From NCBI GenBank assembly GCA_965237415.1, contig CBDEFM010000001.1, positions 260,205 to 324,204 of the forward strand: a DNA stretch of 64,000 bases. The letters run 5' to 3'. Both the position numbers and the translations under genes were made by a program. Positions 15,563 through 38,359 of this stretch are shown in pieces; positions within the stretch are counted from its first letter, which is position 1; each line of letters starts with the position of its first letter. This DNA is from Alphaproteobacteria bacterium (lineage in GTDB: Bacteria; Pseudomonadota; Alphaproteobacteria; UBA828). The notes beneath the pieces were generated by a model. It did not search any database and was not told the DNA's origin. It was given only the letters and a program-made list of their open reading frames with translations.

Positions 15563-16690
15563 ATGAACATGTCCAGAATCGCGTTCACCGAGGCCCGTAT
15601 CAGGGCGCTCAAAACGCGCAAGGCAGCTTACGACCTACGCGACAGCAAGCTCACCGGATTCGGCGTCCGGGTCCTGCCCTCGGGCCGCAAACGCTTCTTC
15701 ATCCACTGTCAGCATAGGGGGGAGCGCCTCTGGAAGATCGTCGGCGACCCCGCGACGATGGATGTCCGCGAGGCACGGTCTCAAGCCACGGCGATGCTCG
15801 CCGCGATCCGGCGGGGCGAGGATGTGCCGGGCGAAACGGGCGGGGATTACTTCGAGGCGGTCGCCGAGACCGTGTTCCGGCGTCACGAACGGGTCTGGAA
15901 GTCGAGGACCCTTTACGTGAACCGGTGTTATCTGCGCAATCAGCTCCTGCCGCATTTCGCCGGACGCCGGGTCGCGGACATCGGCATGGACGATGTCCGG
16001 AACTGGTTTGCTTCGCTGCGTGCAACCCCGGTCGCGGCGGATCGCTCCATGCCGGTGCTTTCCGTCATCATGCGGGAGGCGGAAGCGATGGGCCTTCGGC
16101 CCGAGGGGTCCAACCCGTGCCGAGGCATCAGGCGATACCGCCGGAAGGGGCGGGAGCGCTTCCTGTCCGACGAAGAGATCCGCAGGTTGTCCGCAACGCT
16201 GTCGGCCCATGCGGACCGTCGCCCCGGACAGGTTGCGGTCATTCGCCTTCTCCTGCTGACCGGATGCCGCCAAGGCGAGATCCTGACACTGCGCTGGTCG
16301 GACTATCGCGAAGGCCATCTGTTCCTCCGGGACAGCAAGACGGGCCCCAGAACCGTCTGGCTGTCGGACCCGGCCAGGCGCATTCTCGATACCCTGGAGC
16401 GAACCGGTCCATGGGTCTTTCCGGCCGCGCAGCGGGACCGCCCGCGGAGCGCGGGGTGGCTGCACCGGTTCTGGTACCGGGTCCGCACGGAACCCGGCCT
16501 GTGCGACGTGCGCCTTCACGACCTGCGCCACACTCATGCCAGCATCGCCCTGAAGCAGGGCGCAACCGTCCTCGCGATCGGCAGGCTGCTCGGACACCGC
16601 AGCCCAGAGACGACGCTCAAATATACCCATCTCGCCGACACGATGGTCCACGAGGCCGCCGAGACGGTCGGCGCCGTGCTTGAGGGCTGA
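15563..16690 (+). CDS. Tyrosine integrase, P4-like (DUF4102 arm-binding N-terminus)
   Basis: 375 aa. N-terminal LTGFGVRVLPSGRKRFF. Catalytic motifs LLLLTGCRQGEILTLRW, HDLRHTHAS and LLGHRSPETTLKYTHL. Confidence 0.9.
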   Translation: MNMSRIAFTEARIRALKTRKAAYDLRDSKLTGFGVRVLPSGRKRFFIHCQHRGERLWKIVGDPATMDVREARSQATAMLAAIRRGEDVPGETGGDYFEAVAETVFRRHERVWKSRTLYVNRCYLRNQLLPHFAGRRVADIGMDDVRNWFASLRATPVAADRSMPVLSVIMREAEAMGLRPEGSNPCRGIRRYRRKGRERFLSDEEIRRLSATLSAHADRRPGQVAVIRLLLLTGCRQGEILTLRWSDYREGHLFLRDSKTGPRTVWLSDPARRILDTLERTGPWVFPAAQRDRPRSAGWLHRFWYRVRTEPGLCDVRLHDLRHTHASIALKQGATVLAIGRLLGHRSPETTLKYTHLADTMVHEAAETVGAVLEG

Positions 16691-16693
16691 GCG

Positions 16694-17842
16694 GTGGCGC
16701 ACAAGAAACGCGTGCGACTCACCGATACGGCCATCGCCCGCCTGCGCCCCCGCGAGCGGGAATATACGGTCTGGGACGGGAGCCTGCCCGGTCTCGGGGT
16801 CCGGGTCCGTCCGTCCGGAGGACGCAGCTGGATATTCCTGCTCAAGACGGATGGAGGGACCCGCAAGATCTCCCTCGGGCCGGCGGCGCTGAAGATAGCC
16901 GAGGAGGCCCGCCGCGAGTGCCACGTCCTGTCCGCGGCGCCCGGCCACGAGCGCGAGCCCGAGGAGACCGGGCACGTGGCACCTTTGTTCCGGGCTTTCG
17001 TCGCCGGCGCGTGGAAGACGGCTCACTTCAACCGGTACAAGCCTTCGACGCGGAGGGGCGTGCGATATGTCCTTGCCAGGCAGCTCTTGCCCGCGTTCGG
17101 ATCGAGGCCATTGGATCGAATATCCCGGGCACAGGTCAGATGCTGGTTCGACACATTCAGCCAGACCGCCCCGGCGGGTGCCAACCGTGCTCTCGACATC
17201 TTGCGGCAGATCATGAACTTCGCAATCGCCTGCGGCCACATCGACGCCAATCCCGCGCGCGGCGCAAAAAGGAACCGACGTCAGCCGCTCACCCGCTTCC
17301 TGTCCCGCGAGGAGATCGGCCGCCTCCATAGCGTCCTGGACAAGCAGTCCGGCAAGAGCCGCACGCGGCAGGCCGACATCATCCGGCTTCTGCTGCTCAC
17401 CGGATGCCGCAAAAGCGAGATCGTGCAGCTGCGCCGGTCCGAGGTCCGGGACGACGTGCTCACCTTGGCCGACAGCAAGACCGGGCCGCGAAACGTGCCC
17501 CTCAACGCAGGAGCCCGGCGCATCCTCGAACGGCAGCCCCAATGCGGGAGCCCGTTCGTGTTTCCGTCGCCCCGCGACCCGGCCCGGCCGCGCAGTCTCA
17601 ACCTCCCGCTATGGTATCGGGTCCGGCGGGAAGCCGGGATCGAGGATGTCCGTCTTCATGATCTCCGCCATACGGTGGCGAGCCATGCCGTCATGAACGG
17701 GGTGCCGGTGCCGGTGGTATCCCGGCTGCTCGGCCACTCCAATGTGCGCATGACGCTACGCTATGCCCATCTCGGGGACCGGGAAATCGAGGCTGCGGCC
17801 GAAAGCATCGGCCAATTCATCGCCGATATCATGGACATGTAG
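16694..17842 (+). CDS. Second tyrosine integrase, P4-like, 3 nt downstream of the first
   Basis: 382 aa with a GTG start. LPGLGVRVRPSGGRSW, LLLLTGCRKSEIVQLRR, HDLRHTVASHAV, LLGHSNVRMTLRYAHL. Confidence 0.9.
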   Translation: MAHKKRVRLTDTAIARLRPREREYTVWDGSLPGLGVRVRPSGGRSWIFLLKTDGGTRKISLGPAALKIAEEARRECHVLSAAPGHEREPEETGHVAPLFRAFVAGAWKTAHFNRYKPSTRRGVRYVLARQLLPAFGSRPLDRISRAQVRCWFDTFSQTAPAGANRALDILRQIMNFAIACGHIDANPARGAKRNRRQPLTRFLSREEIGRLHSVLDKQSGKSRTRQADIIRLLLLTGCRKSEIVQLRRSEVRDDVLTLADSKTGPRNVPLNAGARRILERQPQCGSPFVFPSPRDPARPRSLNLPLWYRVRREAGIEDVRLHDLRHTVASHAVMNGVPVPVVSRLLGHSNVRMTLRYAHLGDREIEAAAESIGQFIADIMDM

Positions 17843-18026
17843 AATGACCGTTGGCCGGCGTATTCGCCTCGTACCGCTGGTCCGTGGGGTGTGAAAACCA
17901 ACGCGGCTCCGCCCTTGTAGCCGGACGACGGCACAGCTTATGGTTAGGACTCTTTGCTGTTTGTTGGTCGGCGCGCGGATTGGACGCCGATCGGCGCGCT
18001 AACTAGTTGTTTTCTTTTGACTCATA

Positions 18027-18064
18027 GGGGTCAACATCGCGCGCTTAACAACACTCAAGCTCGC
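18027..18064 (+). repeat. 38-bp GGGG-type terminal inverted repeat, copy L (GGGGTCAACATCGCGCGCTTAACAACACTCAAGCTCGC)
   Basis: Matches the reverse complement of 22984-23021 at 32/38 positions. Matches 22081-22108 (same orientation) at 22/28. Confidence 0.7.
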
Positions 18065-18238
18065 TGCGCTCCTCCGCAGTCAACTTGATCTCCACCGATG
18101 GCCGCATCACCATGCCCCCCGATTCGATACCACCCCTTTAACAATACGAACTTTTGGGAATTATATCGAATAGTCACATTTTCCGCTTGACCATGCGCCC
18201 ATCAATCTTTATCTTATAGTCACACAAGGGGATTGAAG

Positions 18239-19225
18239 ATGGCTCGCAAGGCACCCGGTAAATCGCATCGCAAGGGACTGACCTTCATGGAGGTCGCCGA
18301 CATGTTCCGCGACGAAGAGACGGCGCGGGAGTGGATCGAGAAAGAGCGCTGGCCCGATGGCCCGTACTGCCCAAAGTGCGGATCGTTCAACGTCCAGTCC
18401 AAGATCAAGCACAAGACCATGACGCACCGTTGCCGGGAGTGCATGAGCGGCAAGAGCAAGACCATGTTCACCGTCCGCATCGGCACCGTCATGGAAAGCA
18501 CGAAGATGCCCTACCGCGCTTGGGCGGTCGGCATTTACCTGTTCACGACGAACATCAAGGGCGTGTCGTCCATGAAGCTGCATCGCGAACTGGGCATCAG
18601 TCAGAAGGCGGCATGGTTCATGCTGCATCGGCTGCGGCTGGCGTTTGACGCCGAGACCGGGCCGTTCACGGGGCCGGTGGAAGTGGACGAAACGCATATC
18701 GGTGGCAAGCGGAAGAACAAGCCGTTGGCGAAACGGAAAGAGCTGAAAGGTCGCGGCGCGGTGGACATGACCACCGTTGCCGGGGCGAAGGACCGCGAGA
18801 CCAACCGGATTGCGGCCCGCGTCGTTGCAGATACCGATGCGCCGACGCTGCAAGGTTTCGTTCGCGAGCACGCCAAACCCGGCGCGACGGTCTATACGGA
18901 CGAGGCGAGAGCCTACAAGGGGATGCCCGAATTCACCCATGAGGCCGTCAATCACAGCGTCGGCGAATATGTCCGCGATATGGCTTCGACGAATGGCATG
19001 GAGAGCTTCTGGTCCATGCTGGAGCGCGGGCATCAGGGCATCTACCACAAGTTCTCGCCGAAGCATCTTGATCGCTACGTGACGGAATTCGCCGGCCGGC
19101 ATAACGACCGCGAAGCCGATACCGTCGATCAAATGACGGGGATCGTTGCGGGCATGGTCGGGAAACGGCTGACCTATGCCGATCTGACCGCGGACAATGG
19201 GCTGGACTCGGGAGCGCGCTCATGA
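18239..19225 (+). CDS. IS1595-family (ISXO2-like) DDE transposase with N-terminal zinc ribbon
   Basis: RWPDGPYCPKCGSFNVQSK..HRCRECMSGK zinc ribbon, MPYRAWAVGIYLFTTNIKGVSSMKLHRELGISQKAAWFMLHRLR HTH, and EVDETHIGGKRKN. The track start 18233 is TTG; ATG 18239 is preferred. Confidence 0.9.
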   Translation: MARKAPGKSHRKGLTFMEVADMFRDEETAREWIEKERWPDGPYCPKCGSFNVQSKIKHKTMTHRCRECMSGKSKTMFTVRIGTVMESTKMPYRAWAVGIYLFTTNIKGVSSMKLHRELGISQKAAWFMLHRLRLAFDAETGPFTGPVEVDETHIGGKRKNKPLAKRKELKGRGAVDMTTVAGAKDRETNRIAARVVADTDAPTLQGFVREHAKPGATVYTDEARAYKGMPEFTHEAVNHSVGEYVRDMASTNGMESFWSMLERGHQGIYHKFSPKHLDRYVTEFAGRHNDREADTVDQMTGIVAGMVGKRLTYADLTADNGLDSGARS

Positions 19226-19638
19226 CCGATGAAGAACGCCGTCAACAGAACTGGGTGGAACTCCGGGCAGACTGCACGGCGCAAGGAATCTTCGATCTCA
19301 TTGTGAACGCCGTGAAGCGCGACGTTGAGCGATTCAACAAACTCCCTCCGCAGAGGCGCCGAGACCGAACCTTCAAGCTCGAACAGAATGAACGGGAAAT
19401 CGTTGGTGTCGCTCAAGTGAACGATTCCGGGGAGTGGATAAAAGGGCTGATGGGCATAAACATTGAAAAGACCGGAGCGACTATTAGGGTATGGCGCAAC
19501 CGAGATTGTCAATTTGCGGTCGAACAGGAATGGAATGAAGAGACGCTCGCCTGCGACCTGAAGATCGACGGTAAGCGCTATTCGGTCTGGCAGATCAGTC
19601 AGAAGGCGATCGGTGACCTGCTGTTCGGCTATGGCTGA
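19222..19638 (+). CDS. Hypothetical protein (138 aa), first passenger gene of the IS
   Basis: Its start overlaps the transposase stop (ATGA). Its stop overlaps the next start (ATGGCTGA). I recognise no motif. Confidence 0.55.
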   Translation: MTDEERRQQNWVELRADCTAQGIFDLIVNAVKRDVERFNKLPPQRRRDRTFKLEQNEREIVGVAQVNDSGEWIKGLMGINIEKTGATIRVWRNRDCQFAVEQEWNEETLACDLKIDGKRYSVWQISQKAIGDLLFGYG

Positions 19639-21040
19639 TCCCAACTTCGCGAGCGGCACGGTCTGGACGGGCGACAACCTCGCGGTCATGCGGGGCATGA
19701 ACAGTGGGTGCGTCGATCTGATCTACTTGGACCCGCCGTTCAACTCCAATCGGCACTACGAGGCGCCGATAGGGAGCAAGGCCGCCGGGGCCTCGTTCAA
19801 GGACGCATGGACCCTGGACGACGTTGACGTGTGCGAGCATGGCGAACTAGCCGATCGCAACCCAGCGGCATACTGTGTCATCGAAGCGGCACGCATGGCG
19901 CATGGAAAGTCCATGCAATCATACTTGATCTTCATGGCGGTACGGTTGCTGGAAATGAGGCGCATCCTAAAGCCCACGGGCAGCATCTATTTGCACTGCG
20001 ATCCGACTGCGAGCCATTACCTGAAGTTACTAATGGACAGTATTTTTGGACAAGACAGCTTTCGTAATGAAATTGTGTGGCAACGGACGCCCGCGAAGGC
20101 GTTGATGACCACGCGGCTGGCGACCAACCATGATATTTTGTTTGTTTATCAGATGGCAGAGCGTGCAACATGGAATGCAGACGCAGCCTTCATCCCATAT
20201 GATCCGAACAACCTCGACAGTCGGACGGCTTCTAAATATCGGCACTTAGATGCCGACGGGCGGGTGTACCGTCTTGATAACTTGACTAATCCGAACAGAA
20301 ATAGGCCGAACCTAACATACGAATTCATGGGCGTTACTCGTGTATGGCGCTGGACACAAGAACGAATGCTAGAAGCGTATGACGCGGGATTGATCGTTCA
20401 AAACAAGCCGGGAGGTGTGCCTCAGCTAAAGCGGTATTTGGATGAGCAGAAGGGACGGCCAGTCGGAGATGTATGGGCAGATATTCCGCCTATAAATTCG
20501 CAAGCGAAGGAGCGGATAGGCTATCCCACTCAAAAGCCCTTAGCCTTGCTAAGGCGGATCATTACACTGAGTACCTATCCCGATGATTTTGTGCTTGATC
20601 CCTTCTGCGGTTGCGCCACGGCCCTTGTCGCGGCGGATCGGCTCCAACGGAAGTGGGCCGGTATCGACCTCTCGCCGCTCGCCATAAAGCTAGTTAACGA
20701 GAGAATCGCGGGAGATCGGGCAGCCACCAAGGAGGCCGAACACAACCCCGTGATCGGCGGCTCCCTGTTCCGCGTAACAGCCCTGACAGAGCCCCCCAGC
20801 CGAACGGACCTAGGAGACCTTCCCAACTACCGGACACACCGGCACCGCCTCTACGGCGTACAGGAGGGCGTCTGCGCAGGCTGCGAGACGCACTTCCCGT
20901 TCCGCGTCATGGACGTTGACCACATGCTGCCCCGCTCACGCGGTGGGACGGATCATCCCGACAATCTTCAACTGCTCTGCTCCGGTTGCAACCGGAGCAA
21001 GGGCGGTAAAACGATGGCCGAATGGAGGGCCGCGCAGTGA
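19631..21040 (+). CDS. N6-adenine/N4-cytosine DNA methyltransferase (beta-class motif order) fused to a C-terminal HNH endonuclease domain
   Basis: Motif IV DLIYLDPPFNSN lies near the N-terminus, and the AdoMet motif VLDPFCGCATALVAA lies later. The C-terminal CAGCETHF..DVDHMLPRSRGGTDHPDNLQLLCSGCNRSKGG is a canonical HNH with two CxxC pairs. ATG at 19631. Confidence 0.85.
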   Translation: MADPNFASGTVWTGDNLAVMRGMNSGCVDLIYLDPPFNSNRHYEAPIGSKAAGASFKDAWTLDDVDVCEHGELADRNPAAYCVIEAARMAHGKSMQSYLIFMAVRLLEMRRILKPTGSIYLHCDPTASHYLKLLMDSIFGQDSFRNEIVWQRTPAKALMTTRLATNHDILFVYQMAERATWNADAAFIPYDPNNLDSRTASKYRHLDADGRVYRLDNLTNPNRNRPNLTYEFMGVTRVWRWTQERMLEAYDAGLIVQNKPGGVPQLKRYLDEQKGRPVGDVWADIPPINSQAKERIGYPTQKPLALLRRIITLSTYPDDFVLDPFCGCATALVAADRLQRKWAGIDLSPLAIKLVNERIAGDRAATKEAEHNPVIGGSLFRVTALTEPPSRTDLGDLPNYRTHRHRLYGVQEGVCAGCETHFPFRVMDVDHMLPRSRGGTDHPDNLQLLCSGCNRSKGGKTMAEWRAAQ

Positions 21041-21216
21041 CCGACAAACCCCGCAAGCGCAAGCTGCCGAAGCCCAGGACGATCACGCTGCCCGATCAGA
21101 GCTACCAGCCGCCGAAGGCGGAGCAGGAGAAAGAGCACGACATGCCGGGTGCGTCCAAGAAGACGGTGCGCCGTGCATTCTTCCGTCCGGTCAACGTCCG
21201 CCGCGAGGACGGATGA
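21022..21216 (+). CDS. Hypothetical small basic protein (64 aa)
   Basis: Overlaps the methyltransferase 3' end by 19 nt, and its stop overlaps the next start (ATGA). Lys/Arg/Pro-rich. Coding status rests mainly on this coupling. Confidence 0.4.
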   Translation: MEGRAVTDKPRKRKLPKPRTITLPDQSYQPPKAEQEKEHDMPGASKKTVRRAFFRPVNVRREDG

Positions 21217-21554
21217 AGGGGAAGAAATATAGAAGGCAGATGAAGCGCCTGCGGAAGATGCTGGCCGATGGAACGCGCTACCAGGGCGGGGCGTACAAAG
21301 ACGGCAAGAGGCATGGCCCTTGGGTGGCAATCCGTCGTAATGGGACTGTTGTGGTGTGCGAGTACAAGGAGGGCGCGATGGTTGGCCGTCCTCGCAAACT
21401 CAAGAAGGGTCATTGGCCGCCGGTCATAGCTACGGTGCGGGCCCAAGGCTCTGTTTCAGCACGGAGCTGGGGCCACGCGAGGATGCACGGCCCACCTCTT
21501 CGGGGTGGGAGGGCTGACGGCAATCAGGTGTCGCGACTACGATTCACAATGTGA
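21213..21554 (+). CDS. Hypothetical protein with one MORN/YwqK-like repeat (113 aa)
   Basis: GAYKDGKRHGPWVAIRRNGTVVVCEYKEG resembles a MORN-type repeat. The stop codon lies inside IRR. Confidence 0.4.
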   Translation: MKGKKYRRQMKRLRKMLADGTRYQGGAYKDGKRHGPWVAIRRNGTVVVCEYKEGAMVGRPRKLKKGHWPPVIATVRAQGSVSARSWGHARMHGPPLRGGRADGNQVSRLRFTM

Positions 21555-21606
21555 CTATTCGATATAATCCCCGAACTTTTCGTACAGAACACTAGCACCG
21601 GAGGAC

Positions 21607-21975
21607 ATGGACATGTTGAAGACACTAATGTGGGCGACAGTAAGCGTGATCGCCATAGTGGCAACCACAGAAAACCTGACGGGCGCTGACGGCACTAAGG
21701 CTGACACCTGGGCCAAGCAGATAGCAGAGAAGGACCCGCGGAACGCAAATTGGAGGGCGCTGAAAGCTCGCAAGATGAGCGTGGGTCTGATAGAGCAGCA
21801 GTGCCGCAAATACATCAACGGACCACGCAAGGCAGAGGCATTAGACGAGGTAGCCTCACAGCTGTACCACTGGCGAGAGACTGCATACGACATCGCGGAT
21901 GCCATGAACTACGACCACATACCGACTGCAAGGACCCTGTGCATGGACTTGAAGACCTTGAGCATCATACGCTGA
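21607..21975 (+). CDS. Hypothetical protein with N-terminal hydrophobic segment (122 aa)
   Basis: Strong SD GGAGGA 3 nt upstream of the ATG. N-terminal LMWATVSVIAIVATT looks like a signal or anchor. No homology recognised. Confidence 0.5.
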   Translation: MDMLKTLMWATVSVIAIVATTENLTGADGTKADTWAKQIAEKDPRNANWRALKARKMSVGLIEQQCRKYINGPRKAEALDEVASQLYHWRETAYDIADAMNYDHIPTARTLCMDLKTLSIIR

Positions 21976-23434: not shown

Positions 23435-24019
23435 ATGGAGCAACGTTGGTTCGACGAGGAACTATCGGGTTGCCAGCTTGGCGACGGTCGTCTGGATAGT
23501 CGCCTTCGCCAACTGGTGGAGCGCATGGATGCCGGGTTCGGCGAGAGCATTCCTCTTGCCTGCCAGGACTGGGCCAGCACGAAGGCGGCGTACCGCTTCT
23601 TCTCCAACGACCGGGTGAGCGAAGAAGATATTCTTCGGGGCCATTTCGACGCAACGCGGCGCCGGTTCGTCGCCAGCGACGGCCCGATGCTGGTTCTTCA
23701 CGACACGACGGAGTTTACATGGAAACGTAGGCGTTCCGAGGCAGTGGGCTTCACCACGAAGGTAAGCAGCGGCAAGGACAAGCGCGGTCGCGAGCGCATG
23801 CACACGGTCTGCGGGCTATTGATGCATTCGAGCCTGGTGGCGACGACGGATGGGTTGCCGCTGGGAATAGCCGCGGCCAAGTTCTGGACCCGGAAGAAGT
23901 TCAAGGGCACGAACGCCCTCAGGAGGAGGATCAACCCAACGCGCGTGCCGATCGAGGGCAAGGAGAGCATGCGCTGGCTGGACAACCTGCGTCGGCGGCC
24001 GGGGGATTTCAGCGATTGA
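23435..24019 (+). pseudogene. IS4-family (Tn5/IS50-like) transposase, N-terminal about 185 aa only
   Basis: LGDGRLDSRLRQLVERM, STKAAYRFFSNDRVSEEDIL and VLHDTTEF follow the Tn5 Tnp N-terminal DNA-binding region and first catalytic Asp. Homology stops near 23985, less than half of a full transposase. Confidence 0.7.
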
Positions 24020-24312
24020 GGGTTCGCTTCCAATCCCTTCTGAGGGGCCGGAGCCAGATGTCCTTTTTCGGCTGGGCGCGTTTCATGTGCCTGTCGTAGC
24101 GCCCGCGATCCTGGGTGGTTCCGACACGGATCCAGCCCGATGCCCTGTACGGCGCCGGTGTAGCGCGGGGTCTCGACGAAGGTCTCGATGAGCACGGGCG
24201 TTGTGTTGTAGCGCTCGGTCCAGTCCTCGGGCAGGCGGCGGCGGACGATGGCGAGGATGTGCGAGCCGAGGTTGGGGATCGTGATCCATGGGATTCCAGG
24301 ACAGGTGGTGTA
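24009..24312 (-). pseudogene. DUF4338 (DruA-like) protein, C-terminal fragment with internal frameshift
   Basis: Reverse frames give ..TCPGIPWITIPNLGSHILAIVRRRLPEDWTERYNTTPVLIETFVETPRYTGA, then after a 1-nt shift near 24145-24155 YRASGWIRVGTTQDRGRYDRHMKRAQPKKDIWLRPLRRDWKRTLNR*. The LIETFV..YRA.GW signature is the one I associate with DUF4338. Confidence 0.6.
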
Positions 24313-24599
24313 CGATAACGGGCGGGATCGGATTCAGGCTGACGGCGCGGTGGGAGGCGTACTGATCCTCACGATCGCGTTCGACGCGAGCGGCATCGGA
24401 AGGCAAGAAAGGGGATAACGTGTTCCGGGGCACACAACAGACTGGTGCGTGGCGTGGACGAGTGCACCCCCATCATCAAGCCGGCTCACAACGGTGGCGC
24501 GCGGGTCGGCGTGCACCCCGCGCGCCGGACCACGACCACTTGCAAGACCGGCCCCCTACGGCTGGCATCGCCGCCCGGAATAGGCCCGTGCGCTCCACC

Positions 24600-27500
24600 A
24601 TGGCTCGCGGGACCGCAGCCGCGCTGCTCACGCTGGCCGTGCTGTTGGGCGTGGCCCTGCCGGGTTCCCCCGCCTACGCGAGCGACGTGCTGTGGGAGGC
24701 CTCGTTGACGGTGGGCAACTACCTGACTGCGGACGAGCCGCATTCGGAGAGGGAACGAGGTTTTCGCAGGGAGTATTGCGTTCCGGAATCCTGGGGGTCG
24801 TACCTCGGTGAGGATTGGTCAAATCTTCTTGAAGAGGATCGATCCAATTATGATATGTGCTATGGCAGCATTTCCGACCGTACGTTCGAAGTGGATGGAA
24901 GGACCTACACGCTGGAAGGTGTATTTCACTGGGTTTCCGACGAAGTGTTCCTACTCGAATTCACGAGATCGGTCGATATGACCCCGCTGTTGGGCAAGGA
25001 GTTCATCGTCAACGGGGTCACGTTCCGGATGGCAGACGGGAGCTTCCCGGCTGGCAATAGAGGCGACGGCATCGTCTGGCATGCACCCCAATGGAACGCC
25101 GCCATGGGCTGGGAGGTGGGTTCCACCATCTCGGTGCAAATCAAGGAGTCGGGGCCGCTGACGGCAAAATTCCGGAACCTGCCGAACAGCCACAACCGGG
25201 AGCCGGCCCTTTTGGGGCTGTATCCGTTTGCCTTTCTGCTTGAGTTCAGCGAGGAGGTCGCGGTCGACGCGGACACCTTGCGCTCGGTGCTGACAGTGAC
25301 AGGCGGCGAGATGACCGGCATCGCGCGGCGATATCCGCCGAGGAACCAGATCTGGCGGATCACCGTGCAGCCGGCCTCGCTGGTCGCACCGGTGATGCTC
25401 ACGCTGACGGCGAAGGCGAGCTGCGAGGACGATGGGGCCATCTGCACCGCGGACGGCCGCCGCATGGCCGAGGCGGTCGAGGCCGAGGTGCCGGGCGCCC
25501 CGCCGCCCCGGGTGACGAATGTGGCGATACCGGGATCGTCGGGTCCCGGAGAGAACGGCACCTGGGACACGGGCGAGATCGTCCTTGCGCAGGTGAGCTT
25601 CAGCGTGCCGGTGACATTGGTGAAGCCTGGGGGCAGGGAACCGACCCTCGGCATCCTGCTCGACGGTATGCGCCGCGAGGCGGCGTACTGGACCAGAACC
25701 GAACGGACCCTCCTGTTCCGCTACACGGTGACCGCGGAGGACGACGGGGCGCGCAACGCGTGGGTGGTGTCGAACGGGCTGTCGCTCAACGGTACGACCC
25801 TCCGTGACGAGATCGACCGGGACGCGAATCTCGGCTTCTCTATCGCGCCGCCCCTCCCCGGGCTTTCGGTAGCGGATGTCACGGTGACGGAGGCCGCAGG
25901 CGCGACGGCGGATTTCGTGGTGACCCTGAGCCCGGCGGCGTCGGAGACGGTGACGGTGGACTACGCCACCTCGGACGGCACCGCGACCGCGGGGGCGGAC
26001 TACACGGACACCTCGGGGACGCTCACCTTCAACGCCGGCGAGACCTCGAAGACGGTCTCGGTGCCGGTGGTCGATGACGCCCACGAGGACAGCGGAGAGA
26101 CCTTCACGCTGACGCTCAGCAACGCGTCGGGCGGCGAGGCGTATCTTGCCGACGCAAGCGCGACCGGGGCTATCGAGAACGACGACCCCGCGGTGGAAGC
26201 GACGCCGCTGACGGCGGAGGTCCGGGACATTTCCGTGGAGGCCCACGATGGGAGCACGGCGTTCACCTTCGAGCTTCGCTTCAGCGAGGACGTAACGGGC
26301 CTGAGCTACGCGACGCTACGCAATTCCGCGTTCTCGGTAACGAACGGGCAGGTGACGCGGTCGCGACGCCTCGTGCAAGGGAAGAACAGACGCTGGGAAA
26401 TCACCGTCGCGCCCGACGGCAACGACGACGTCACCATCACGCTGCCGGCGACGACGGACTGCGCGGCCACGGGCGCCATCTGCAACGAAGACGGCCGTCC
26501 ACTCTCGGCGGCGGTCACGGCGACGGTCCCGCATACGGCGCAGGCGCAGACGGACACGCCCCCGCCGCCGGACTTCCGGGTCCGGTTCGAGGACATTCCG
26601 GCCGTGCATGACGGGACGAGCGCGATCGTCTTCAAGGTCAAGTTCAACACGAAGCCCAAGGCCAGCTACAGCTACGTCACGATGCGCGACGGCACGCTGG
26701 TCGTCCGGCAGGGCGGAGCGGCCATTGCGGTCACGCGGGCCAAACGCCTCAACAAGCCGCACAACGACCAGTGGGAGATCACGGTCAATCCGGTGTCGAA
26801 GGCGAACATGACGGTCGCGATCCGGCAGACCGCCTCGTGTAGCGAGACGGGCGCGATCTGCACGGAGACGGACGAGCCGCTCGCGAATGGCGGGCTCTCG
26901 CAGACGATCCTCGGCCCGCCGGGGCTCCGGGTGATGGATGCGGAGGTGCGGGAGGCCGCGGACGCGACGGTGGATTTCTCGGTCATCCTGAGCCCCGTGT
27001 CGTCGGCGACGGTGACGGTGAACTACGCCACCGCGGACGACACGGCCACCGCGGGCTCGGACTACACGGCCACGTCGGGGACGCTGACCTTCGAGCCGGG
27101 CGTCACCTTAAAGAGGGTGTCGGTGCCGGTGCTCGACGACGTCCTTGACGATGACGGGGAGACGTTCACGCTGACCTTGAGCAATCCCTCGGGGGCGAAT
27201 GCGTATCTGGTGGACGCCACGGCCACGGGCACCATCCGGAACTCCGACCCGCTACAGCAAGCGTGGCTGGCGCGGTTCGGCCGCACGGTGGCCGACCAGG
27301 TGATCGAGGCGGTGCAGGGCCGTATTCAGGCGCCGCCGCGTCCCGGGGTCGCGGTGAGTCTCGCCGGCCAGGCGATCGGCGGCGACGGATCGTTGTCCGG
27401 GGCCGGTTCCGCGGAGCCGGACGGCGCGGACGCGCGGGCGTCGCTGGCCGAGGAGACCGAGGCCCGGTCGCGGCTGGAGACGATGTCGAACTGGTTGCAG

Positions 27501-28799
27501 GGCGAGAATGAGGAGGATGGCAGTCGGGCCGGGTTCCGGTCACGCAGCGTGACGGAACGCGACCTGCTGACCGGGACGTCGTTCTCGCTGACGGGCGAGG
27601 CCGCGGCGGACGGCGGCTACGCGTCGCTGTGGGGCCGGGGCGCGGTCTCAAGCTTCGACGGCCGCGACGGCGACCTCACGCTCGACGGCGAGGTGACGAG
27701 CGCCATGCTCGGGGCGGACTGGACGCGCGACCCCGGATCGGGGTCCGGGGCAGGTGCGTGGACCGCCGGGCTTCTGGTGTCGCATTCGCGCGGCGACGGC
27801 AGCTACCGGGGCGAGGGCGAGGGCAAGGTCGAGAGCGCGCTGACCGGGCTCTATCCCTATGGGCGCTATGCGGTGAGCGACCGCGTGACGGTCTGGGGCG
27901 TGGCCGGCTACGGGTCGGGCACGCTCACGCTGACGCCGAAGAACCCGGTGGAGGGCGAGGACGACAGGCCGATCGAGACCGATATGAGCCTGACGATGGG
28001 CGCGGTGGGCGTGCGCGGGGTGATGATCGAGGCGCCGGCCGAAGGCGGCCCGGAACTCGCGGTCAAGTCGGACGCGATGATGGTGCGCACGAGCTCGGAG
28101 GCGGCAAGCGGCAGCGGCGGCAATCTCGCGGCGGCGGAGGCCGACGTGACCCGTCTGCGGCTCGGTCTGGAGGGGAGCTGGCGCGGCATCGAGGCCGGCG
28201 GCGGCGAACTGACGCCGCGTCTCGAGATCGGGCTTCGCCATGACGGCGGCGATGCCGAGACCGGCTTCGGCCTCGACCTCGGTGGCGGGCTTGCCTGGTC
28301 GCATCCGGCGAGCGGGGTCTCGGCCGAGCTCAGCGGGCGCGGCTTGCTGACCCACGAGGCCGGCGGCTTCCGCGACCGTGGTATCTCGGGCTCGCTCGGC
28401 TGGGATCCGCGGCCGGAGACCGGGCGCGGGGTGAGCCTCACGCTGACCCAGACGCTGGGTGCGTCGGCCTCGGGCGGCATGGACGCGCTCTTGTCGCGCG
28501 GCACCCTGGCGGATCTGGCGGCCAACGACGACGGGGCGGACGATCTGCAGCGCCGCCGTCTGGAGCTCCGGCTCGGCTACGGCGTCTCCGCCTTCGGGGA
28601 CCGGTTCACGGCGACGCCGGAGATCGGGCTCGGCCTGTCGGACAGCGCGCGCGACTACAGCCTCGGCTGGCGGCTCGGTCTCGACCGGTCCGGACCGAAC
28701 GCGCTCGAACTCCGGCTCGAGGCGACGCGGCGCGAGAGCGCAAACGACAACGCGGACCCGGAGCACGGCATCGGGTTCAAGCTGACGGCGAGCTGGTGA
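24600..28799 (+). CDS. Autotransporter with Calx-beta and Big-like passenger modules (about 1,399 aa)
   Basis: Signal peptide MARGTAAALLTLAVLLGVALPGSPAYA at ATG 24600. Two Calx-beta domains (..VDYATSDGTATAGADYTDTSGTLTFNAGETSKTVSVPVVDD..) and three 90-100-aa Big-like modules. The C-terminal about 470 aa is a beta-barrel translocator with alternating pattern, ending GFKLTASW. Confidence 0.85.
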   Translation: MARGTAAALLTLAVLLGVALPGSPAYASDVLWEASLTVGNYLTADEPHSERERGFRREYCVPESWGSYLGEDWSNLLEEDRSNYDMCYGSISDRTFEVDGRTYTLEGVFHWVSDEVFLLEFTRSVDMTPLLGKEFIVNGVTFRMADGSFPAGNRGDGIVWHAPQWNAAMGWEVGSTISVQIKESGPLTAKFRNLPNSHNREPALLGLYPFAFLLEFSEEVAVDADTLRSVLTVTGGEMTGIARRYPPRNQIWRITVQPASLVAPVMLTLTAKASCEDDGAICTADGRRMAEAVEAEVPGAPPPRVTNVAIPGSSGPGENGTWDTGEIVLAQVSFSVPVTLVKPGGREPTLGILLDGMRREAAYWTRTERTLLFRYTVTAEDDGARNAWVVSNGLSLNGTTLRDEIDRDANLGFSIAPPLPGLSVADVTVTEAAGATADFVVTLSPAASETVTVDYATSDGTATAGADYTDTSGTLTFNAGETSKTVSVPVVDDAHEDSGETFTLTLSNASGGEAYLADASATGAIENDDPAVEATPLTAEVRDISVEAHDGSTAFTFELRFSEDVTGLSYATLRNSAFSVTNGQVTRSRRLVQGKNRRWEITVAPDGNDDVTITLPATTDCAATGAICNEDGRPLSAAVTATVPHTAQAQTDTPPPPDFRVRFEDIPAVHDGTSAIVFKVKFNTKPKASYSYVTMRDGTLVVRQGGAAIAVTRAKRLNKPHNDQWEITVNPVSKANMTVAIRQTASCSETGAICTETDEPLANGGLSQTILGPPGLRVMDAEVREAADATVDFSVILSPVSSATVTVNYATADDTATAGSDYTATSGTLTFEPGVTLKRVSVPVLDDVLDDDGETFTLTLSNPSGANAYLVDATATGTIRNSDPLQQAWLARFGRTVADQVIEAVQGRIQAPPRPGVAVSLAGQAIGGDGSLSGAGSAEPDGADARASLAEETEARSRLETMSNWLQGENEEDGSRAGFRSRSVTERDLLTGTSFSLTGEAAADGGYASLWGRGAVSSFDGRDGDLTLDGEVTSAMLGADWTRDPGSGSGAGAWTAGLLVSHSRGDGSYRGEGEGKVESALTGLYPYGRYAVSDRVTVWGVAGYGSGTLTLTPKNPVEGEDDRPIETDMSLTMGAVGVRGVMIEAPAEGGPELAVKSDAMMVRTSSEAASGSGGNLAAAEADVTRLRLGLEGSWRGIEAGGGELTPRLEIGLRHDGGDAETGFGLDLGGGLAWSHPASGVSAELSGRGLLTHEAGGFRDRGISGSLGWDPRPETGRGVSLTLTQTLGASASGGMDALLSRGTLADLAANDDGADDLQRRRLELRLGYGVSAFGDRFTATPEIGLGLSDSARDYSLGWRLGLDRSGPNALELRLEATRRESANDNADPEHGIGFKLTASW

Positions 28800-30421: not shown

Positions 30422-31183
30422 TCATGACTTGGTAGCAGCGTCGGCATCATCGGTGCGCATGGACGTGCCGTGCAGCTCGATCCGGGTGGCGCCGTGGACG
30501 AGACGGTCGAGGATTGCATCGGCGAGGGTGGGATCGTTGAGCTGCCGGTGCCAGTCGGCGACCGGGAGTTGGCTGGTGGCGACCACCGAGCGCCGGCCGA
30601 AGCGATCATCGAGTATCTCGAGGAGGTCGCGTGCCCGCGCGCCGTCGATCGGCGCCAGGCCCCAGTCGTCGAGGATGAGCACCTCGATGCGGGCAAGATC
30701 GCGGTAGAGCTTCAGTATGGTGCCCTCGCCATGGGCGATCCGCAGATCGGTGAGCAGCCGCGGCACGCGCAGGTACTGGGCTTGGTACCCTTCGAGGCAG
30801 GCCTTGTGGGCGAAGGCGCACGCGATCCAGGACTTGCCGGTGCCGCAGGGGCCGGTGATCAGGATATTGGCGCCGTTGCGGACCCACACGCAGTCGCCGA
30901 GGCCGAGCACGAGGCTGCGGTCGAGACCGCGGGGGCGGCTCAGGTTGATGTCCTCGAAGCAGGCGTCCTGGTGGCGGAGCTGGGCCTTCTTGAGCCGCCG
31001 CTGTAGGGCTCTGGATCGGCGCTCGGCGATCTCGCGGTCGATCAGCAACGCGAGGCGGTCCTCGAAGGTCATGTCATCGAGGTCGTGGCGCGCCATCTGT
31101 TCTAGGAAGGCGGCCTGCATCCCGGGTAGGCGCAGCTTGGCTATGCGCGCGGCCAGGGGGTGGGATACGGCGTTATCGGTCAT
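30422..31183 (-). CDS. istB: IS21 helper ATPase IstB
   Basis: 253 aa. Walker A GPCGTGKSW, Walker B VLILDDWG. Overlaps the istA stop. Confidence 0.9.
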   Translation of the reverse strand: MTDNAVSHPLAARIAKLRLPGMQAAFLEQMARHDLDDMTFEDRLALLIDREIAERRSRALQRRLKKAQLRHQDACFEDINLSRPRGLDRSLVLGLGDCVWVRNGANILITGPCGTGKSWIACAFAHKACLEGYQAQYLRVPRLLTDLRIAHGEGTILKLYRDLARIEVLILDDWGLAPIDGARARDLLEILDDRFGRRSVVATSQLPVADWHRQLNDPTLADAILDRLVHGATRIELHGTSMRTDDADAATKS

Positions 31184-32709: not shown

Positions 32710-32861
32710 CCCGTATCCCTCGGACCAATCGCGAAAGTCCGAGGCGTACGACGGCACCCTGAGTCGCACCAAAACCCGCCGCCCCGCAGGGGTGGCTACC
32801 TTGGTGAGATTGGGTGGCTACCTTGAGTGAGAATCGGTGGCTACCTTCGTGAGATTCCGCA

Positions 32862-38130: not shown

Positions 38131-38167
38131 GGGGAAGCCTCCAGGTCCGTGGAATACGGCCCGGAGA

Positions 38168-38201
38168 TTGGCTCGCGATAACAACAGTTATCGCGAGCCA
38201 A
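38168..38201 (+). promoter_or_regulatory. 34-bp lox-like palindrome, site B: TTGGCTCGCGATA-ACAACAGT-TATCGCGAGCCAA
   Basis: Exact reverse complement of site A, so the two sites are in inverted orientation. It lies between the divergent recombinase and giant autotransporter genes. Confidence 0.6.
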
Positions 38202-38359
38202 ATCGAGTGCGGCGGGGCGACCGGTTCGGACGTGGGCGAAGACGAGGAGCCACGGGCGATGTCGGGGCCATGTCCGCCGTGTCTCGGCTGGGAAGGGGGA
38301 CGTCGGGCGCTCGCGCGCGGCGCCTGCGGCGACGAAGGCAAGGCCGGGGAGATGGGTTC

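What the first reader, a model, noticed from the sequence alone, without database searches (positions are those of the whole stretch)
18148..21580. Intact IS1595-family transporter IS (3,417 bp) with 25-bp IRs and a perfect 8-bp target duplication
IRL GGGAATTATATCGAATAGTCACATT (18156-18180) and IRR (21548-21572) match at 24/25. The 8-mer GAACTTTT directly abuts both ends. An 8-bp duplication is the established hallmark of IS1595-family transposition. As far as I recall, the tip GGnnATTAT fits the ISNwi1 subgroup, which includes passenger-carrying members. Only 987 bp of the element is transposase; the other 2.3 kb is cargo. All five ORFs are chained by overlapping stop and start codons (ATGA at 19222, ATGGCTGA at 19631, a 19-nt overlap at 21022, ATGA at 21213), and the last ORF stops inside IRR. 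The perfect duplication and near-perfect IRs argue for a recent, probably still active insertion. The reconstructed empty site (TACGAA-CTT-TTCGTA) lies about 27 bp upstream of the ATG of orf122, so the IS has displaced that gene's promoter.
Basis: partly seen in the sequence, partly recalled or inferred. Interest (0 to 1): 0.65.

Follow-up and report, generated by a model that had tools for sequence, protein, structure and literature searches.

The report
Jumping gene carrying a DNA-methylase–nuclease
This is a real 3.4-kb insertion sequence of the IS1595 family that moves as one unit with a DNA methyltransferase–HNH nuclease gene; it is a new member of a known kind of element, and this copy may no longer be able to move itself.

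Summary
Element 18156-21572 (3,417 bp) has 24/25 inverted repeats and perfect GAACTTTT duplications. Two more copies, 99.7% identical, sit at other sites in another assembly with different perfect 8-bp duplications, so the unit transposes whole. The transposase has the IS1595 zinc ribbon and DDE domain, and matches ISNwi1-subgroup references best (36% identity).

The interpretation needs three corrections.
- Not all non-transposase DNA is cargo. The 59-aa orf4 is conserved next to the right end of almost all relatives, including 1.35-kb tnp+orf4 elements. orf2 is restricted to the closest relatives of this element. True cargo is the beta-class MTase fused to an HNH nuclease, probably a single-chain restriction-modification enzyme. 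orf5 is a doubtful gene.
- "Recent and still active" is doubtful here. The same insertion occurs in a second assembly. Both carry K262E at the signature lysine, which is K/R in 81/82 relatives. That second copy also has a nonsense mutation in the MTase and a 189-bp duplication.
- The orf4 start is more likely GTG 21037.

Family-level findings: the target preference is S|WWWNNWWW|S, a promoter-plus-operator layout at the left end is conserved, and about half of relatives carry methyltransferase or restriction-modification cargo.

Verdict: new member of a known kind, moderate interest.

The parts
18148..18155 (.). Left copy of the 8-bp target-site duplication, GAACTTTT
   Evidence: It is identical to 21573-21580 and fits the clade target preference WWWNNWWW flanked by G/C.
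18156..18180 (+). IRL, GGGAATTATATCGAATAGTCACATT. The tip is GGGAATTAT. ATAGTCACA (18170-18178) is the presumed transposase-binding core.
   Evidence: The tip GGGGATTATA and the AGTCAC core are conserved across relatives.
18187..18215 (+). Sigma-70-like promoter for the IS operon: TTGACC (18187-18192), 17 nt, TATCTT (18210-18215)
   Evidence: It is the only + strand promoter-like hit in 17850-21750. The same -35/-10 arrangement sits at the same distance from IRL in relatives. Function is inferred.
18216..18224 (+). Internal second copy of the IR core ATAGTCACA, immediately after the -10 hexamer. Presumed operator for transposase autoregulation.
   Evidence: (I15). In relatives the internal 6-mer changes together with the IR 6-mer: AGTGCC in L019 and L029, AGTTAC in L013. 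Binding is inferred.
18239..19225 (+). tnp, 328 aa. Zn ribbon CPKC (44-47) and CREC (65-68), HTH region 'GISQKAAW' at 119, DDE triad D150/D221/E255. The signature residue +7 after E255 is E262 in this copy and K in the sister copies.
   Evidence: Pfam PF12760 and PF12762; NCBIfam NF033547; motif positions; alignment to ISfinder references; K262E.
19222..19638 (+). orf2, 138 aa, unknown function, ATGA-coupled to tnp. Found only in the elements whose transposases are closest to this one; not tied to the MTase.
   Evidence: No Pfam, NCBIfam, PADLOC or PHROG hit. 37 homologue clusters, all unnamed. AlphaFold2 pLDDT 92 with no significant Foldseek match. Present in L004-L007, L016 and L018, with or without the MTase.
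19631..21040 (+). Cargo: 469-aa fusion of a beta-class N6/N4 DNA methyltransferase (motif IV DPPF at 34, motif I DPFCGCAT at 323) and a C-terminal HNH nuclease (CxxC 415, DH 430-431, N 445, CxxC 450)
   Evidence: Pfam N6_N4_Mtase 1.4e-40 and HNH 8e-11; PADLOC MTase_II 2.8e-60; PDB relatives including CcrM and MboIIA; motif positions; alignment with a hypervariable central TRD.
21037..21216 (+). orf4, 59 aa (GTG start, GTGA overlap). Conserved small backbone protein of this IS clade with motif YQP(S/P)KAE..E.DMPG....VRRAFFRPV.
   Evidence: Found near the right end of almost all relatives. At least 1,036 homologue clusters of about 60 aa, none named. Third-codon-position bias in substitutions of 4/2/18 and 9/5/22. 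The ORF4-seeded metagenome loci again show the transposase and/or IRR.
21213..21554 (+). orf5, 113 aa, doubtful gene. It is an extra ~0.3 kb between orf4 and IRR that most relatives lack.
   Evidence: Not called by the gene caller on L001/L002/L003. Only 5 homologue clusters. Weak codon-position bias of 16/14/23. A 189-bp tandem duplication is tolerated in L003. An orf4-orf5-IRR arrangement also exists in L083.
21548..21572 (-). IRR, 24/25 match to IRL
21573..21580 (.). Right copy of the 8-bp target-site duplication, GAACTTTT

Best explanation
The feature is a transporter insertion sequence of the IS1595 family, closest to the ISNwi1 subgroup. Its DDE transposase (Zn ribbon, HTH, D150/D221/E255) presumably binds the 25-bp terminal repeats and inserts the whole 3,417-bp unit into A/T-rich 8-bp targets (WWWNNWWW flanked by G/C), producing the 8-bp duplication. 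All genes form one + strand operon with overlapping stop and start codons. A promoter just inside IRL probably drives it, and a second copy of the IR core immediately after the -10 hexamer probably acts as a transposase operator (inferred autoregulation). The backbone of the clade is tnp plus a conserved ~60-aa gene (orf4) that hugs the right end. Cargo sits mainly between them. Here the cargo is a beta-class DNA methyltransferase fused to an HNH nuclease, most likely a single-polypeptide restriction-modification enzyme whose central recognition domain varies between elements. orf2 is an accessory gene of unknown function found only in the closest relatives, and orf5 is a doubtful gene. Shown: boundaries, mobility as a unit, family membership, conservation of orf4, cargo domain content, target preference. 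Inferred: promoter and operator function, restriction activity of the fusion, any role of orf4 and orf2. This particular copy carries Tnp K262E and is shared with a second, more decayed assembly. It is therefore probably an older insertion whose own transposase may be impaired, although its intact ends could still be used in trans.
For: IRs and TSD. Three independent insertions of the same 3,417-bp unit with different perfect TSDs (GAACTTTT, GAAAATTG, CTTTTTTC); homology stops at the IR tips, give or take 0-3 chance-matching flank bases. L001 and L002 are identical over 3,417 bp. Family domains. DDE triad and best match to the ISNwi1, ISPepr2 and ISSpo8 references (95.5, 82.8, 82.8 bits, against at most 77.8 for other subgroups). 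In 79 related loci most elements have GGGGATTATA tips and perfect 8-bp TSDs, with lengths of 1,351-5,438 bp. Target logo from 52 independent insertions (position 2 is 98% A/T, position 7 is 96% A/T, flanks are 75% G/C). orf4 lies on the tnp strand with its stop 16-58 bp from the right tip in most elements that have it (up to about 1.9 kb where extra DNA follows); it is also present in the 1,351-bp elements, which have ten separate insertions in one genome. orf4 is under purifying selection. It is widespread and unnamed. MTase and HNH motifs are intact. The same fusion occurs in relatives whose transposases are only 58-85% identical, with a hypervariable central TRD, and a PD-(D/E)xK-like domain replaces HNH in L022 and L025. 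14 of about 30 distinct element types carry a DNA methyltransferase, 7 of them with a partner ORF that includes BglII-like, EcoRI-like and GmrSD-HNH nucleases. Promoter hit and absence of + strand terminator-like sites. Conserved left-end layout with covarying internal repeat. Literature: transporter ISs and 8-bp TSDs in the IS1595 family (PMC3129680, PMC5704250, PMC8101967); RM or solitary M genes flanked by ISs (PMC2853133).
Against: No ISfinder comparison was possible. Identity to ISNwi1 is only 36% over a trimmed DDE-domain alignment, and the monophyly of the ISNwi1 group is not well supported in PMC8101967. Restriction activity of the MTase-HNH is untested, and the nearest plasmid-borne MTase homologues (up to 54% identity) lack the HNH part. 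Motif I reads DPFCGCAT rather than the usual FxGxG-type motif, but this is conserved in the MTase-HNH fusions of L004, L006, L007, L028 and L048. The promoter and operator are consensus matches plus comparative conservation only. orf4 and orf2 have no detectable homology to any characterised protein, and the orf4 model is poor (pLDDT 64). K262E is not proof of inactivity, because ISfinder references ISPepr2 and ISSpo8 have E and Q at that position.
Confidence: 0.85

Rival explanations
1. The window copy is a dead, non-autonomous copy. K262E inactivates its transposase, so it can move only if a K262 copy supplies transposase in trans. The insertion is old rather than recent.
For: E262 replaces a residue that is K in 80 and R in 1 of 82 clade loci; the only other E is L003, which is the same insertion. 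K/R at this +7 position occurs in 19/21 ISfinder family references. The same insertion, with the same TSD and flanks, is present in a second assembly where the MTase has L206* and the orf5 region has a 189-bp tandem duplication. Window and L001 differ at 8 sites while L001 and L002 are identical.
Against: ISPepr2 ('ILERA') and ISSpo8 ('VQRA'), both ISNwi1-subgroup references, lack K/R at this position, and the neighbouring R263 is retained. Both IRs and the reading frame are intact. L003 comes from a low-coverage long-read assembly (the record name carries '10x_l'), so some of its defects could be sequencing errors.
Confidence: 0.45
2. The MTase-HNH protein is not a restriction-modification enzyme. 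It is an orphan or protective methyltransferase, for example one that shields DNA from other restriction systems, with an HNH domain that nicks or acts as a homing-type nuclease, or that is inactive.
For: No separate restriction gene is present. The closest plasmid homologues are MTases without HNH. The fusion is often inactivated without apparent harm: L206* in L003, loss of part of motif IV in L007, internal deletions in L011, L013 and L015, and a TRD deletion in L028.
Against: The HNH catalytic and zinc-binding residues are conserved in every full-length fusion aligned, whereas the TRD is hypervariable; that pattern is typical of restriction-modification specificity diversification. In L022 and L025 the same MTase backbone carries a different, PD-(D/E)xK-like C-terminal domain in place of HNH. 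Sister elements carry classical MTase plus REase pairs in the same slot. Truncating mutations upstream of a C-terminal nuclease remove both activities together, so they are not expected to be lethal.
Confidence: 0.3
3. The extra genes are part of the transposition machinery. The HNH nuclease would cut the second strand (as TnsA does in Tn7), or methylation would control transposase binding, so the element would be a multi-protein transposon rather than an IS with cargo.
For: The tnp-(orf2)-MTase-HNH-orf4 architecture persists over transposase divergence down to 58% identity. The genes are translationally coupled.
Against: Elements of the same clade without MTase-HNH and orf2 have transposed repeatedly with perfect TSDs. 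The 1,351-bp tnp+orf4 element has ten separate insertions in one genome, and the 1,566-bp deletion derivative has two. Other relatives carry unrelated cargo in the same position. This argues against a role for MTase-HNH and orf2, but not against one for orf4.
Confidence: 0.07
4. It is an accidental juxtaposition: a ~1.1-kb IS next to unrelated genes, closed off by a solo IR from another copy, so it is not a unit.
For: None beyond the general possibility.
Against: The identical 3,417-bp unit occurs at three unrelated sites, each with its own perfect 8-bp duplication directly outside the two IRs.
Confidence: 0.01

Closest known systems
ISNwi1 subgroup of the IS1595 family (ISfinder references ISNwi1, ISPepr2, ISSpo8)
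   Same: N-terminal Zn ribbon plus DDE_Tnp_IS1595 domain, DDE triad, GG-initiated terminal IRs and 8-bp TSD. The transposase DDE domain scores best against these three references. The tip GGGAATTAT fits the subgroup consensus ggnnatTAT, and passenger-carrying members ('ISNwi1+', 1.75-4.75 kb) are listed; both points are recalled from the ISfinder family table and were not checked here.
   Different: Only 36% identity to ISNwi1 over the trimmed DDE domain, and the best hit among 72,556 plasmids is 40%. A conserved second small gene (orf4) sits at the right end, whereas the family is described as having a single transposase gene (PMC8101967). This lineage carries an MTase-HNH cargo.
tISCpe8 and MTnSag1 (IS1595-family transporter IS / mobilizable transposons of Firmicutes)
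   Same: An IS1595-family transposase, 25-bp terminal IRs, 8-bp direct repeats and passenger genes inside the IRs that move with the element (PMC5704250).
   Different: Those elements carry lincomycin resistance and mobilisation functions and are transferred by conjugation. Here there is no resistance or mob/oriT gene, the cargo is a DNA methyltransferase-nuclease, and the hosts are uncultured Alphaproteobacteria-like MAG lineages.
Transposon-like restriction-modification units flanked by inverted repeats with 8-bp target duplications (Xanthomonas oryzae, Neisseria gonorrhoeae; Furuta, Abe and Kobayashi 2010, PMC2853133)
   Same: Restriction-modification genes bounded by imperfect IRs and inserted with an 8-bp duplication. 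That paper also notes RM systems and solitary M genes flanked by ISs, citing the IS1595 paper among its sources.
   Different: Those units contain no transposase gene. This element is autonomous in design, with tnp inside.
Single-polypeptide (Type IIC/IIG-like) restriction-modification enzymes
   Same: A methyltransferase and a nuclease in one chain, with a variable recognition domain between conserved catalytic parts.
   Different: Characterised Type IIG enzymes typically have an N-terminal PD-(D/E)xK nuclease and a gamma-class MTase (from general knowledge). Here a beta-class MTase has a C-terminal HNH. No activity data exist, and no solved structure covers both parts.

Membership tests
IS1595 family | C-terminal DDE_Tnp_IS1595 catalytic domain | tested here: met
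   Pfam PF12762 at 1.1e-38, full-length match 3-153/153. NCBIfam transpos_IS1595 at 5.7e-52, 176.7 bits against a cut-off of 75.
IS1595 family | N-terminal zinc-ribbon domain (absent only in the IS1016 group) | tested here: met
   Pfam PF12760 at 5.5e-09, above its cut-off. CPKC at 44 and CREC at 65.
IS1595 family | Catalytic triad D, D, E/N, with K/R seven residues after the third residue | tested here: inconclusive
   D150, D221 and E255 align with the reference triad. The +7 residue is E262 in this copy, K in the sister copies and in 80/82 relatives, and K/R in 19/21 references. ISPepr2 has E and ISSpo8 has Q.
IS1595 family | Terminal inverted repeats beginning GG, and an 8-bp target duplication | tested here: met
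   25-bp IRs matching at 24/25 with GGG tips. Perfect 8-bp TSDs at three insertions of this element and at 52 independent insertions of relatives.
ISNwi1 subgroup | Transposase closest to ISNwi1-group references | tested here: met
   BLASTP against the 21 ISfinder reference DDE domains from PMC8101967 S2 File: ISNwi1 95.5 bits (36%), ISPepr2 82.8, ISSpo8 82.8; the next best is the ISSod11 group at 77.8. The margin is modest and the reference sequences are trimmed.
ISNwi1 subgroup | End consensus ggnnatTAT | not testable with these tools
   The sequence reads GGGAATTAT and GGGGATTAT, which fits, but the consensus is recalled from the ISfinder table and could not be consulted.
Transporter IS (tIS) | Passenger gene(s) unrelated to transposition, inside the IRs and moving with the IS | tested here: met
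   The MTase-HNH gene lies within the IRs. The unit is found at three sites. Relatives transpose without it.
Restriction-modification system (single-chain) | Intact methyltransferase catalytic and AdoMet-binding motifs | tested here: met
   Motif IV is DPPF at residue 34 and motif I is DPFCGCAT at 323. Motif I is conserved in all five other full-length fusions aligned; motif IV is conserved in four of them and partly deleted in L007. Pfam N6_N4_Mtase at 1.4e-40.
Restriction-modification system (single-chain) | Intact nuclease active site | tested here: met
   Pfam HNH at 8.2e-11 and HNH_5 at 1.6e-10. The two CxxC pairs, DH and N are conserved in all fusions.
Restriction-modification system (single-chain) | Cleavage of unmodified DNA at or near the sequence that the methyltransferase protects | not testable with these tools
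   Needs biochemistry or methylome data.
Mobilizable transposon / IME of the MTnSag1 type | Relaxase/mob gene or oriT | tested here: not met
   No relaxase or mobilisation domain in any of the five ORFs.

The most novel reading that the evidence does not exclude
This ISNwi1-like clade could be a dedicated two-gene transposition platform. It would consist of tnp plus the uncharacterised ~60-aa orf4 protein, with a promoter/operator module at the left end and a fixed cargo slot between the two genes. That slot would preferentially shuttle restriction-modification and other defence modules between distantly related bacteria of one habitat. orf4 (and orf2 in the closest relatives) would be new transposition-control proteins. 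The beta-MTase-HNH fusion would be a new architecture of single-chain restriction enzyme with an exchangeable recognition domain.
Probability: 0.3. Interest if true: 0.6.

Novelty: new member of a known kind. Interest (0 to 1): 0.4.

Why it matters
Transporter ISs of the IS1595 family have been known since 2009, so the element itself extends a known class. Three things from the comparison are useful beyond that.
- It gives a clean, multi-copy example of a restriction-modification-type gene moving inside a simple IS. It also shows that methyltransferase or restriction-modification modules are the commonest cargo in this clade. This bears on how defence genes spread between lineages.
- It identifies a large unannotated family of ~60-aa proteins (at least 1,036 clusters) that is tied to the right end of these ISs. 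A family described as having a single transposase gene therefore has, in this clade, a second conserved gene that can now be tested.
- It provides a sharp target-site rule (S|WWWNNWWW|S) and a conserved promoter/operator layout. Both could improve automatic IS annotation in metagenome-assembled genomes.

Tried and rejected
- Near-identity searches of the whole element against 72,556 plasmids and 50,697 phage records found nothing.
- Exact-protein look-ups of the window's transposase, orf2 and orf122 found no record. Only the MTase-HNH and the integrase were on record.
- orf2: no hit in Pfam, NCBIfam, PADLOC or PHROGs. The confident AlphaFold2 model (pLDDT 92) had no significant Foldseek match in PDB (best: frataxin, TM 0.51, E 0.5) or in BFVD. 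A profile search against PDB sequences found nothing.
- orf4: the model was poor (pLDDT 64), and there was no Pfam or PDB signal even at lax thresholds.
- The FEMS review with the ISfinder family table could not be fetched. The subgroup test therefore used reference sequences from a supplementary alignment in PMC8101967.
- The broad ORF4 alignment was too divergent for a metagenome scan; a narrower alignment returned only 11 loci.
- No tRNA gene and no Rfam family was found anywhere in the window.
- Rejected: a composite or accidental structure (three insertions of the same unit) and an HNH requirement for transposition (minimal relatives move without it).
- Considered but left open: that the 15-nt repeat shared by tnp and orf2 means orf2 borrowed part of the transposase HTH.

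Full report
**1. Observation**

Reading the sequence confirms every coordinate.
- IRL is GGGAATTATATCGAATAGTCACATT at 18156-18180.
- IRR at 21548-21572 is its reverse complement with one mismatch.
- GAACTTTT directly abuts both ends, at 18148-18155 and 21573-21580.

The pair is the longest inverted repeat in the region. With up to three mismatches allowed, the IR occurs only at these two places in the 64-kb window, against zero in 100 shuffles.

**2. The element moves as a unit**

The exact MTase-HNH protein is also encoded twice on a 5.79-Mb contig of another assembly (L001 and L002).
- Both places hold the same 3,417-bp element, 99.7% identical to the window copy.
- Similarity stops at the IR tips, apart from 0-3 flank bases that match by chance.
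- Each copy has its own perfect 8-bp duplication: GAAAATTG and CTTTTTTC.
- L001 and L002 are identical to each other over all 3,417 bp.

So the element, cargo included, has transposed recently in that genome. This rules out an accidental juxtaposition of an IS and a solo IR.

**3. Family**

The 328-aa transposase has Pfam Zn_ribbon_IS1595 and a full-length DDE_Tnp_IS1595 domain, and it passes the NCBIfam IS1595 transposase model.

PMC8101967 summarises the family as having 8-bp duplications, one transposase gene, an N-terminal zinc finger and a C-terminal DDE domain. Its supplementary alignment gave 21 ISfinder reference DDE domains. The comparison gave:
- ISNwi1 95.5 bits (36% identity), ISPepr2 82.8 bits and ISSpo8 82.8 bits, all ISNwi1 subgroup;
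- the ISSod11 group next, at 77.8 bits or below, and all other subgroups lower.

D150, D221 and E255 align with the reference triad. The best transposase match among 72,556 plasmids is only 40% identical. Transporter ISs in this family are established in the literature, with tISCpe8 and MTnSag1 as examples (PMC3129680, PMC5704250).

**4. Relatives and what counts as backbone**

A scan of species-representative genomes with the transposase returned 79 loci with 56-85% identity, almost all from uncultured MAGs of several phyla.

A script anchored on the GGnnTTAT tip found IR pairs with perfect 8-bp duplications in most of them. Element lengths ranged from 1,351 to 5,438 bp.

*orf4 is a backbone gene.*
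- Its homologues occur in almost all elements whose transposase is at least about 59% identical.
- They are always on the tnp strand.
- The stop codon lies 16-58 bp from the right tip in most of these elements.
- This holds whatever lies between tnp and orf4.
- The smallest elements (1,351 bp, ten separate insertions in one genome) consist of tnp and an orf4 homologue only.
- Substitutions between orf4 homologues concentrate at third codon positions (4/2/18 and 9/5/22), so the protein is under selection.
- A profile search found at least 1,036 clusters of about 60 aa, none with a Pfam domain and only one with a source name, 'hypothetical protein'.
- In 11 metagenome loci found by seeding with ORF4 itself, eight again showed an IS1595-type transposase upstream and/or an IRR-like tip 44-129 nt downstream.

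*orf2 is restricted to the closest relatives.*
- It occurs only in the elements closest to this one: L004-L007, L016 and L018.
- Among them, L005, L016 and L018 gave no MTase-HNH match.
- It has 37 unnamed homologue clusters.
- Its AlphaFold2 model is confident (pLDDT 92) but has no significant structural neighbour.

*orf5 is doubtful.*
- The gene caller did not call it on the sister copies.
- It has only five homologue clusters and a weak codon-position bias of 16/14/23.
- L003 tolerates a 189-bp tandem duplication inside it.
- Most relatives lack this extra 0.3 kb.

**5. Cargo**

The 469-aa protein is a beta-class N6/N4 DNA methyltransferase with a C-terminal HNH nuclease.
- MTase: motif IV DPPF at 34 and motif I DPFCGCAT at 323.
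- HNH: two CxxC pairs, DH and N.
- Sources.

The same fusion is carried by relatives whose transposases are 58-85% identical. The alignment shows three things:
- The catalytic N- and C-terminal parts and the HNH domain are conserved.
- The central part, roughly residues 160-290, is hypervariable; this is the presumed target-recognition domain.
- In L022 and L025 the same MTase backbone carries a C-terminal domain that, by eye, looks like a PD-(D/E)xK nuclease, in place of HNH. Pfam was not run on it.

Other relatives carry different methyltransferase modules in the same slot:
- L043 has an N6_N4 MTase with a BglII-like endonuclease, and L079 has an N6 MTase with an EcoRI-like endonuclease.
- L049 has an EcoRI-type methylase with a GmrSD_N-HNH protein.
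- L032 has a D12 (Dam-like) MTase whose only neighbouring ORF was not scanned and looks spurious.
- L064 (D12, Dam-like MTase), L008 (N6_N4 MTase) and L052 (weak, below-threshold Eco57I-like match) each have a partner ORF without a Pfam match.

In all, 14 of about 30 distinct element types carry a methyltransferase, counting three deletion remnants. Other cargo includes a trypsin-like protease, glycosyltransferase family 25, DUF1232, putative secreted lipoproteins and nested IS630/IS66 elements.

I read the fusion as a single-chain restriction-modification enzyme. This is an inference, because no activity data exist and the nearest plasmid homologues lack the HNH part.

The fusion is not needed for transposition. 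Minimal and deletion-derivative elements have moved repeatedly. PMC2853133 already notes RM and solitary M genes flanked by ISs (citing the IS1595 paper among others), and describes RM units bounded by IRs with 8-bp duplications.

**6. How it probably works**

*Target choice.* The 52 independent insertions with perfect duplications give a symmetric target preference.
- Positions 1-3 and 6-8 of the duplication are A/T: position 2 at 98% and position 7 at 96%.
- The centre is neutral.
- The bases just outside the duplication are about 75% G/C, in loci that average 62% G+C.
- GAACTTTT fits this pattern.

*Expression.*
- The only + strand promoter-like site in the region is TTGACC-17-TATCTT at 18187-18215, just inside IRL.
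- No + strand terminator-like site lies within the scanned region, which runs to 21750.
- Directly after the -10 hexamer lies a second copy of the IR core, ATAGTCACA (18216-18224).
- This layout recurs in 17 distinct relatives.
- The internal 6-mer changes together with the IR 6-mer: AGTGCC in L019 and L029, AGTTAC in L013.

I infer one operon (tnp-orf2-MTase/HNH-orf4, with overlapping stops and starts) that is repressed by transposase binding at this operator. The homologue alignment and the gene caller put the orf4 start at GTG 21037, not ATG 21022.

**7. Is this copy active?**

The window copy differs from L001 and L002 at eight sites:
- three synonymous changes in tnp;
- E262 in the window against K262 in the sister copies;
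- three non-synonymous changes in orf2;
- one change in orf5;
- none in the MTase-HNH gene or orf4.

Residue 262 lies seven positions after the catalytic E255 (NGMESFWSML-K/E-RG).
- It is K in 80 and R in 1 of 82 related loci.
- The only other E is L003, which is the same insertion (same flanks, same duplication) in another assembly.
- K/R at this position occurs in 19 of 21 ISfinder references.
- However, ISPepr2 has E and ISSpo8 has Q, so the change is suspicious rather than conclusive.

L003 additionally has a nonsense codon in the MTase (L206*) and the 189-bp duplication. It comes from a low-coverage long-read assembly, so some of this may be error. Overall, the insertion looks older and possibly transposase-impaired rather than fresh. 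Its intact ends could still be mobilised in trans.

**8. Context**

The element lies in the intergenic DNA after two tandem tyrosine-integrase genes (15563-16690 and 16694-17842). It sits 27 nt upstream of the ATG of orf122, which has no known homologue.

The reconstructed target, TACGAA-CTT-TTCGTA, is a perfect 6-3-6 palindrome. The other two insertion sites are not palindromic.

Because the IS operon points into orf122 without a terminator-like site, read-through is as plausible as promoter displacement. Neither was tested.

**9. Verdict**

The finding is real and correctly classified. It is a new member of a known kind: an IS1595-family transporter IS, closest to the ISNwi1 subgroup, with restriction-modification-type cargo.

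- the conserved orf4 backbone gene;
- the cargo slot and its bias towards methyltransferase and restriction-modification modules;
- the target rule;
- the promoter/operator layout;
- the K262E change, which undercuts 'probably still active'.

Interest is moderate (0.4).

Noticed in passing
window 15563-16690 and 16694-17842; also L001 15027-17408 and L083 73-2250: Two tandem tyrosine-integrase genes lie immediately upstream of the IS. Similar tandem integrase pairs lie near the sister copy in L001 and near a truncated relative in L083. The IS copies seem to sit in integrase-rich islands.
   Followed up: partly
window 24420-28799 and 38129-47329: Two giant + strand ORFs (1,459 and 3,066 aa) with Calx-beta, fibronectin type III and SWM repeats, which look like adhesins.
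   Followed up: partly
window 18596-18610 and 19594-19608: An exact 15-nt repeat, ATCAGTCAGAAGGCG, occurs once in tnp (HTH region, 'GISQKAAW') and once in orf2 (the invariant C-terminal 'WQISQKAIGDLLFG'). Both copies encode ISQKA. A rough calculation expects about 0.01 such repeats by chance; the meaning is unknown.
   Followed up: no
window 18142-18155 joined to 21581-21587 (reconstructed empty site): The target was a perfect 6-3-6 palindrome, TACGAA-CTT-TTCGTA. The L001 and L002 targets are not palindromic. It could be an operator of the neighbouring gene, or chance.
   Followed up: partly
L003 10768 region (equivalent to window 21272-21461): The same insertion in another assembly carries a 189-bp tandem duplication inside orf5 and a nonsense codon (L206*) in the MTase-HNH gene. 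This is either real decay or long-read assembly error.
   Followed up: partly
L022 2859-3998, L023 652-1791, L025 7067-8209: A methyltransferase of the same backbone carries a different C-terminal domain in place of HNH. By eye it looks like a PD-(D/E)xK (Mrr-like) nuclease ('GADGGIDGR...V.VKSG'). Pfam was not run on it.
   Followed up: partly
L004-L082 (record titles): Close relatives of this IS occur in MAGs of Alphaproteobacteria, Gammaproteobacteria, Bryobacterales, Dehalococcoidia, Tectimicrobiota, Binatia, Thermoanaerobaculia and Nitrosomonadaceae. Some genomes hold seven to ten copies. The MAG names suggest marine-invertebrate (sponge) microbiome projects, which would imply cross-phylum spread within one habitat. 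The habitat was not verified.
   Followed up: no
window 24005-24292; L001 4026-4313; L002 11945-12174: A ~290-bp stretch of the window is 87% identical to DNA at one end of a DruA-domain gene that sits next to an IS66-type transposase gene in both L001 and L002. This may be another shared mobile element.
   Followed up: no
window 31183-32772 (- strand): A 530-aa ORF with a Mu-transposase C-terminal domain, which is a further mobile-element gene in the window.
   Followed up: no
L031 6945-8147: In one relative the orf4 motif (HSYQPSKAELDEP...) forms the C-terminus of a 401-aa cargo ORF rather than a separate gene.
   Followed up: no
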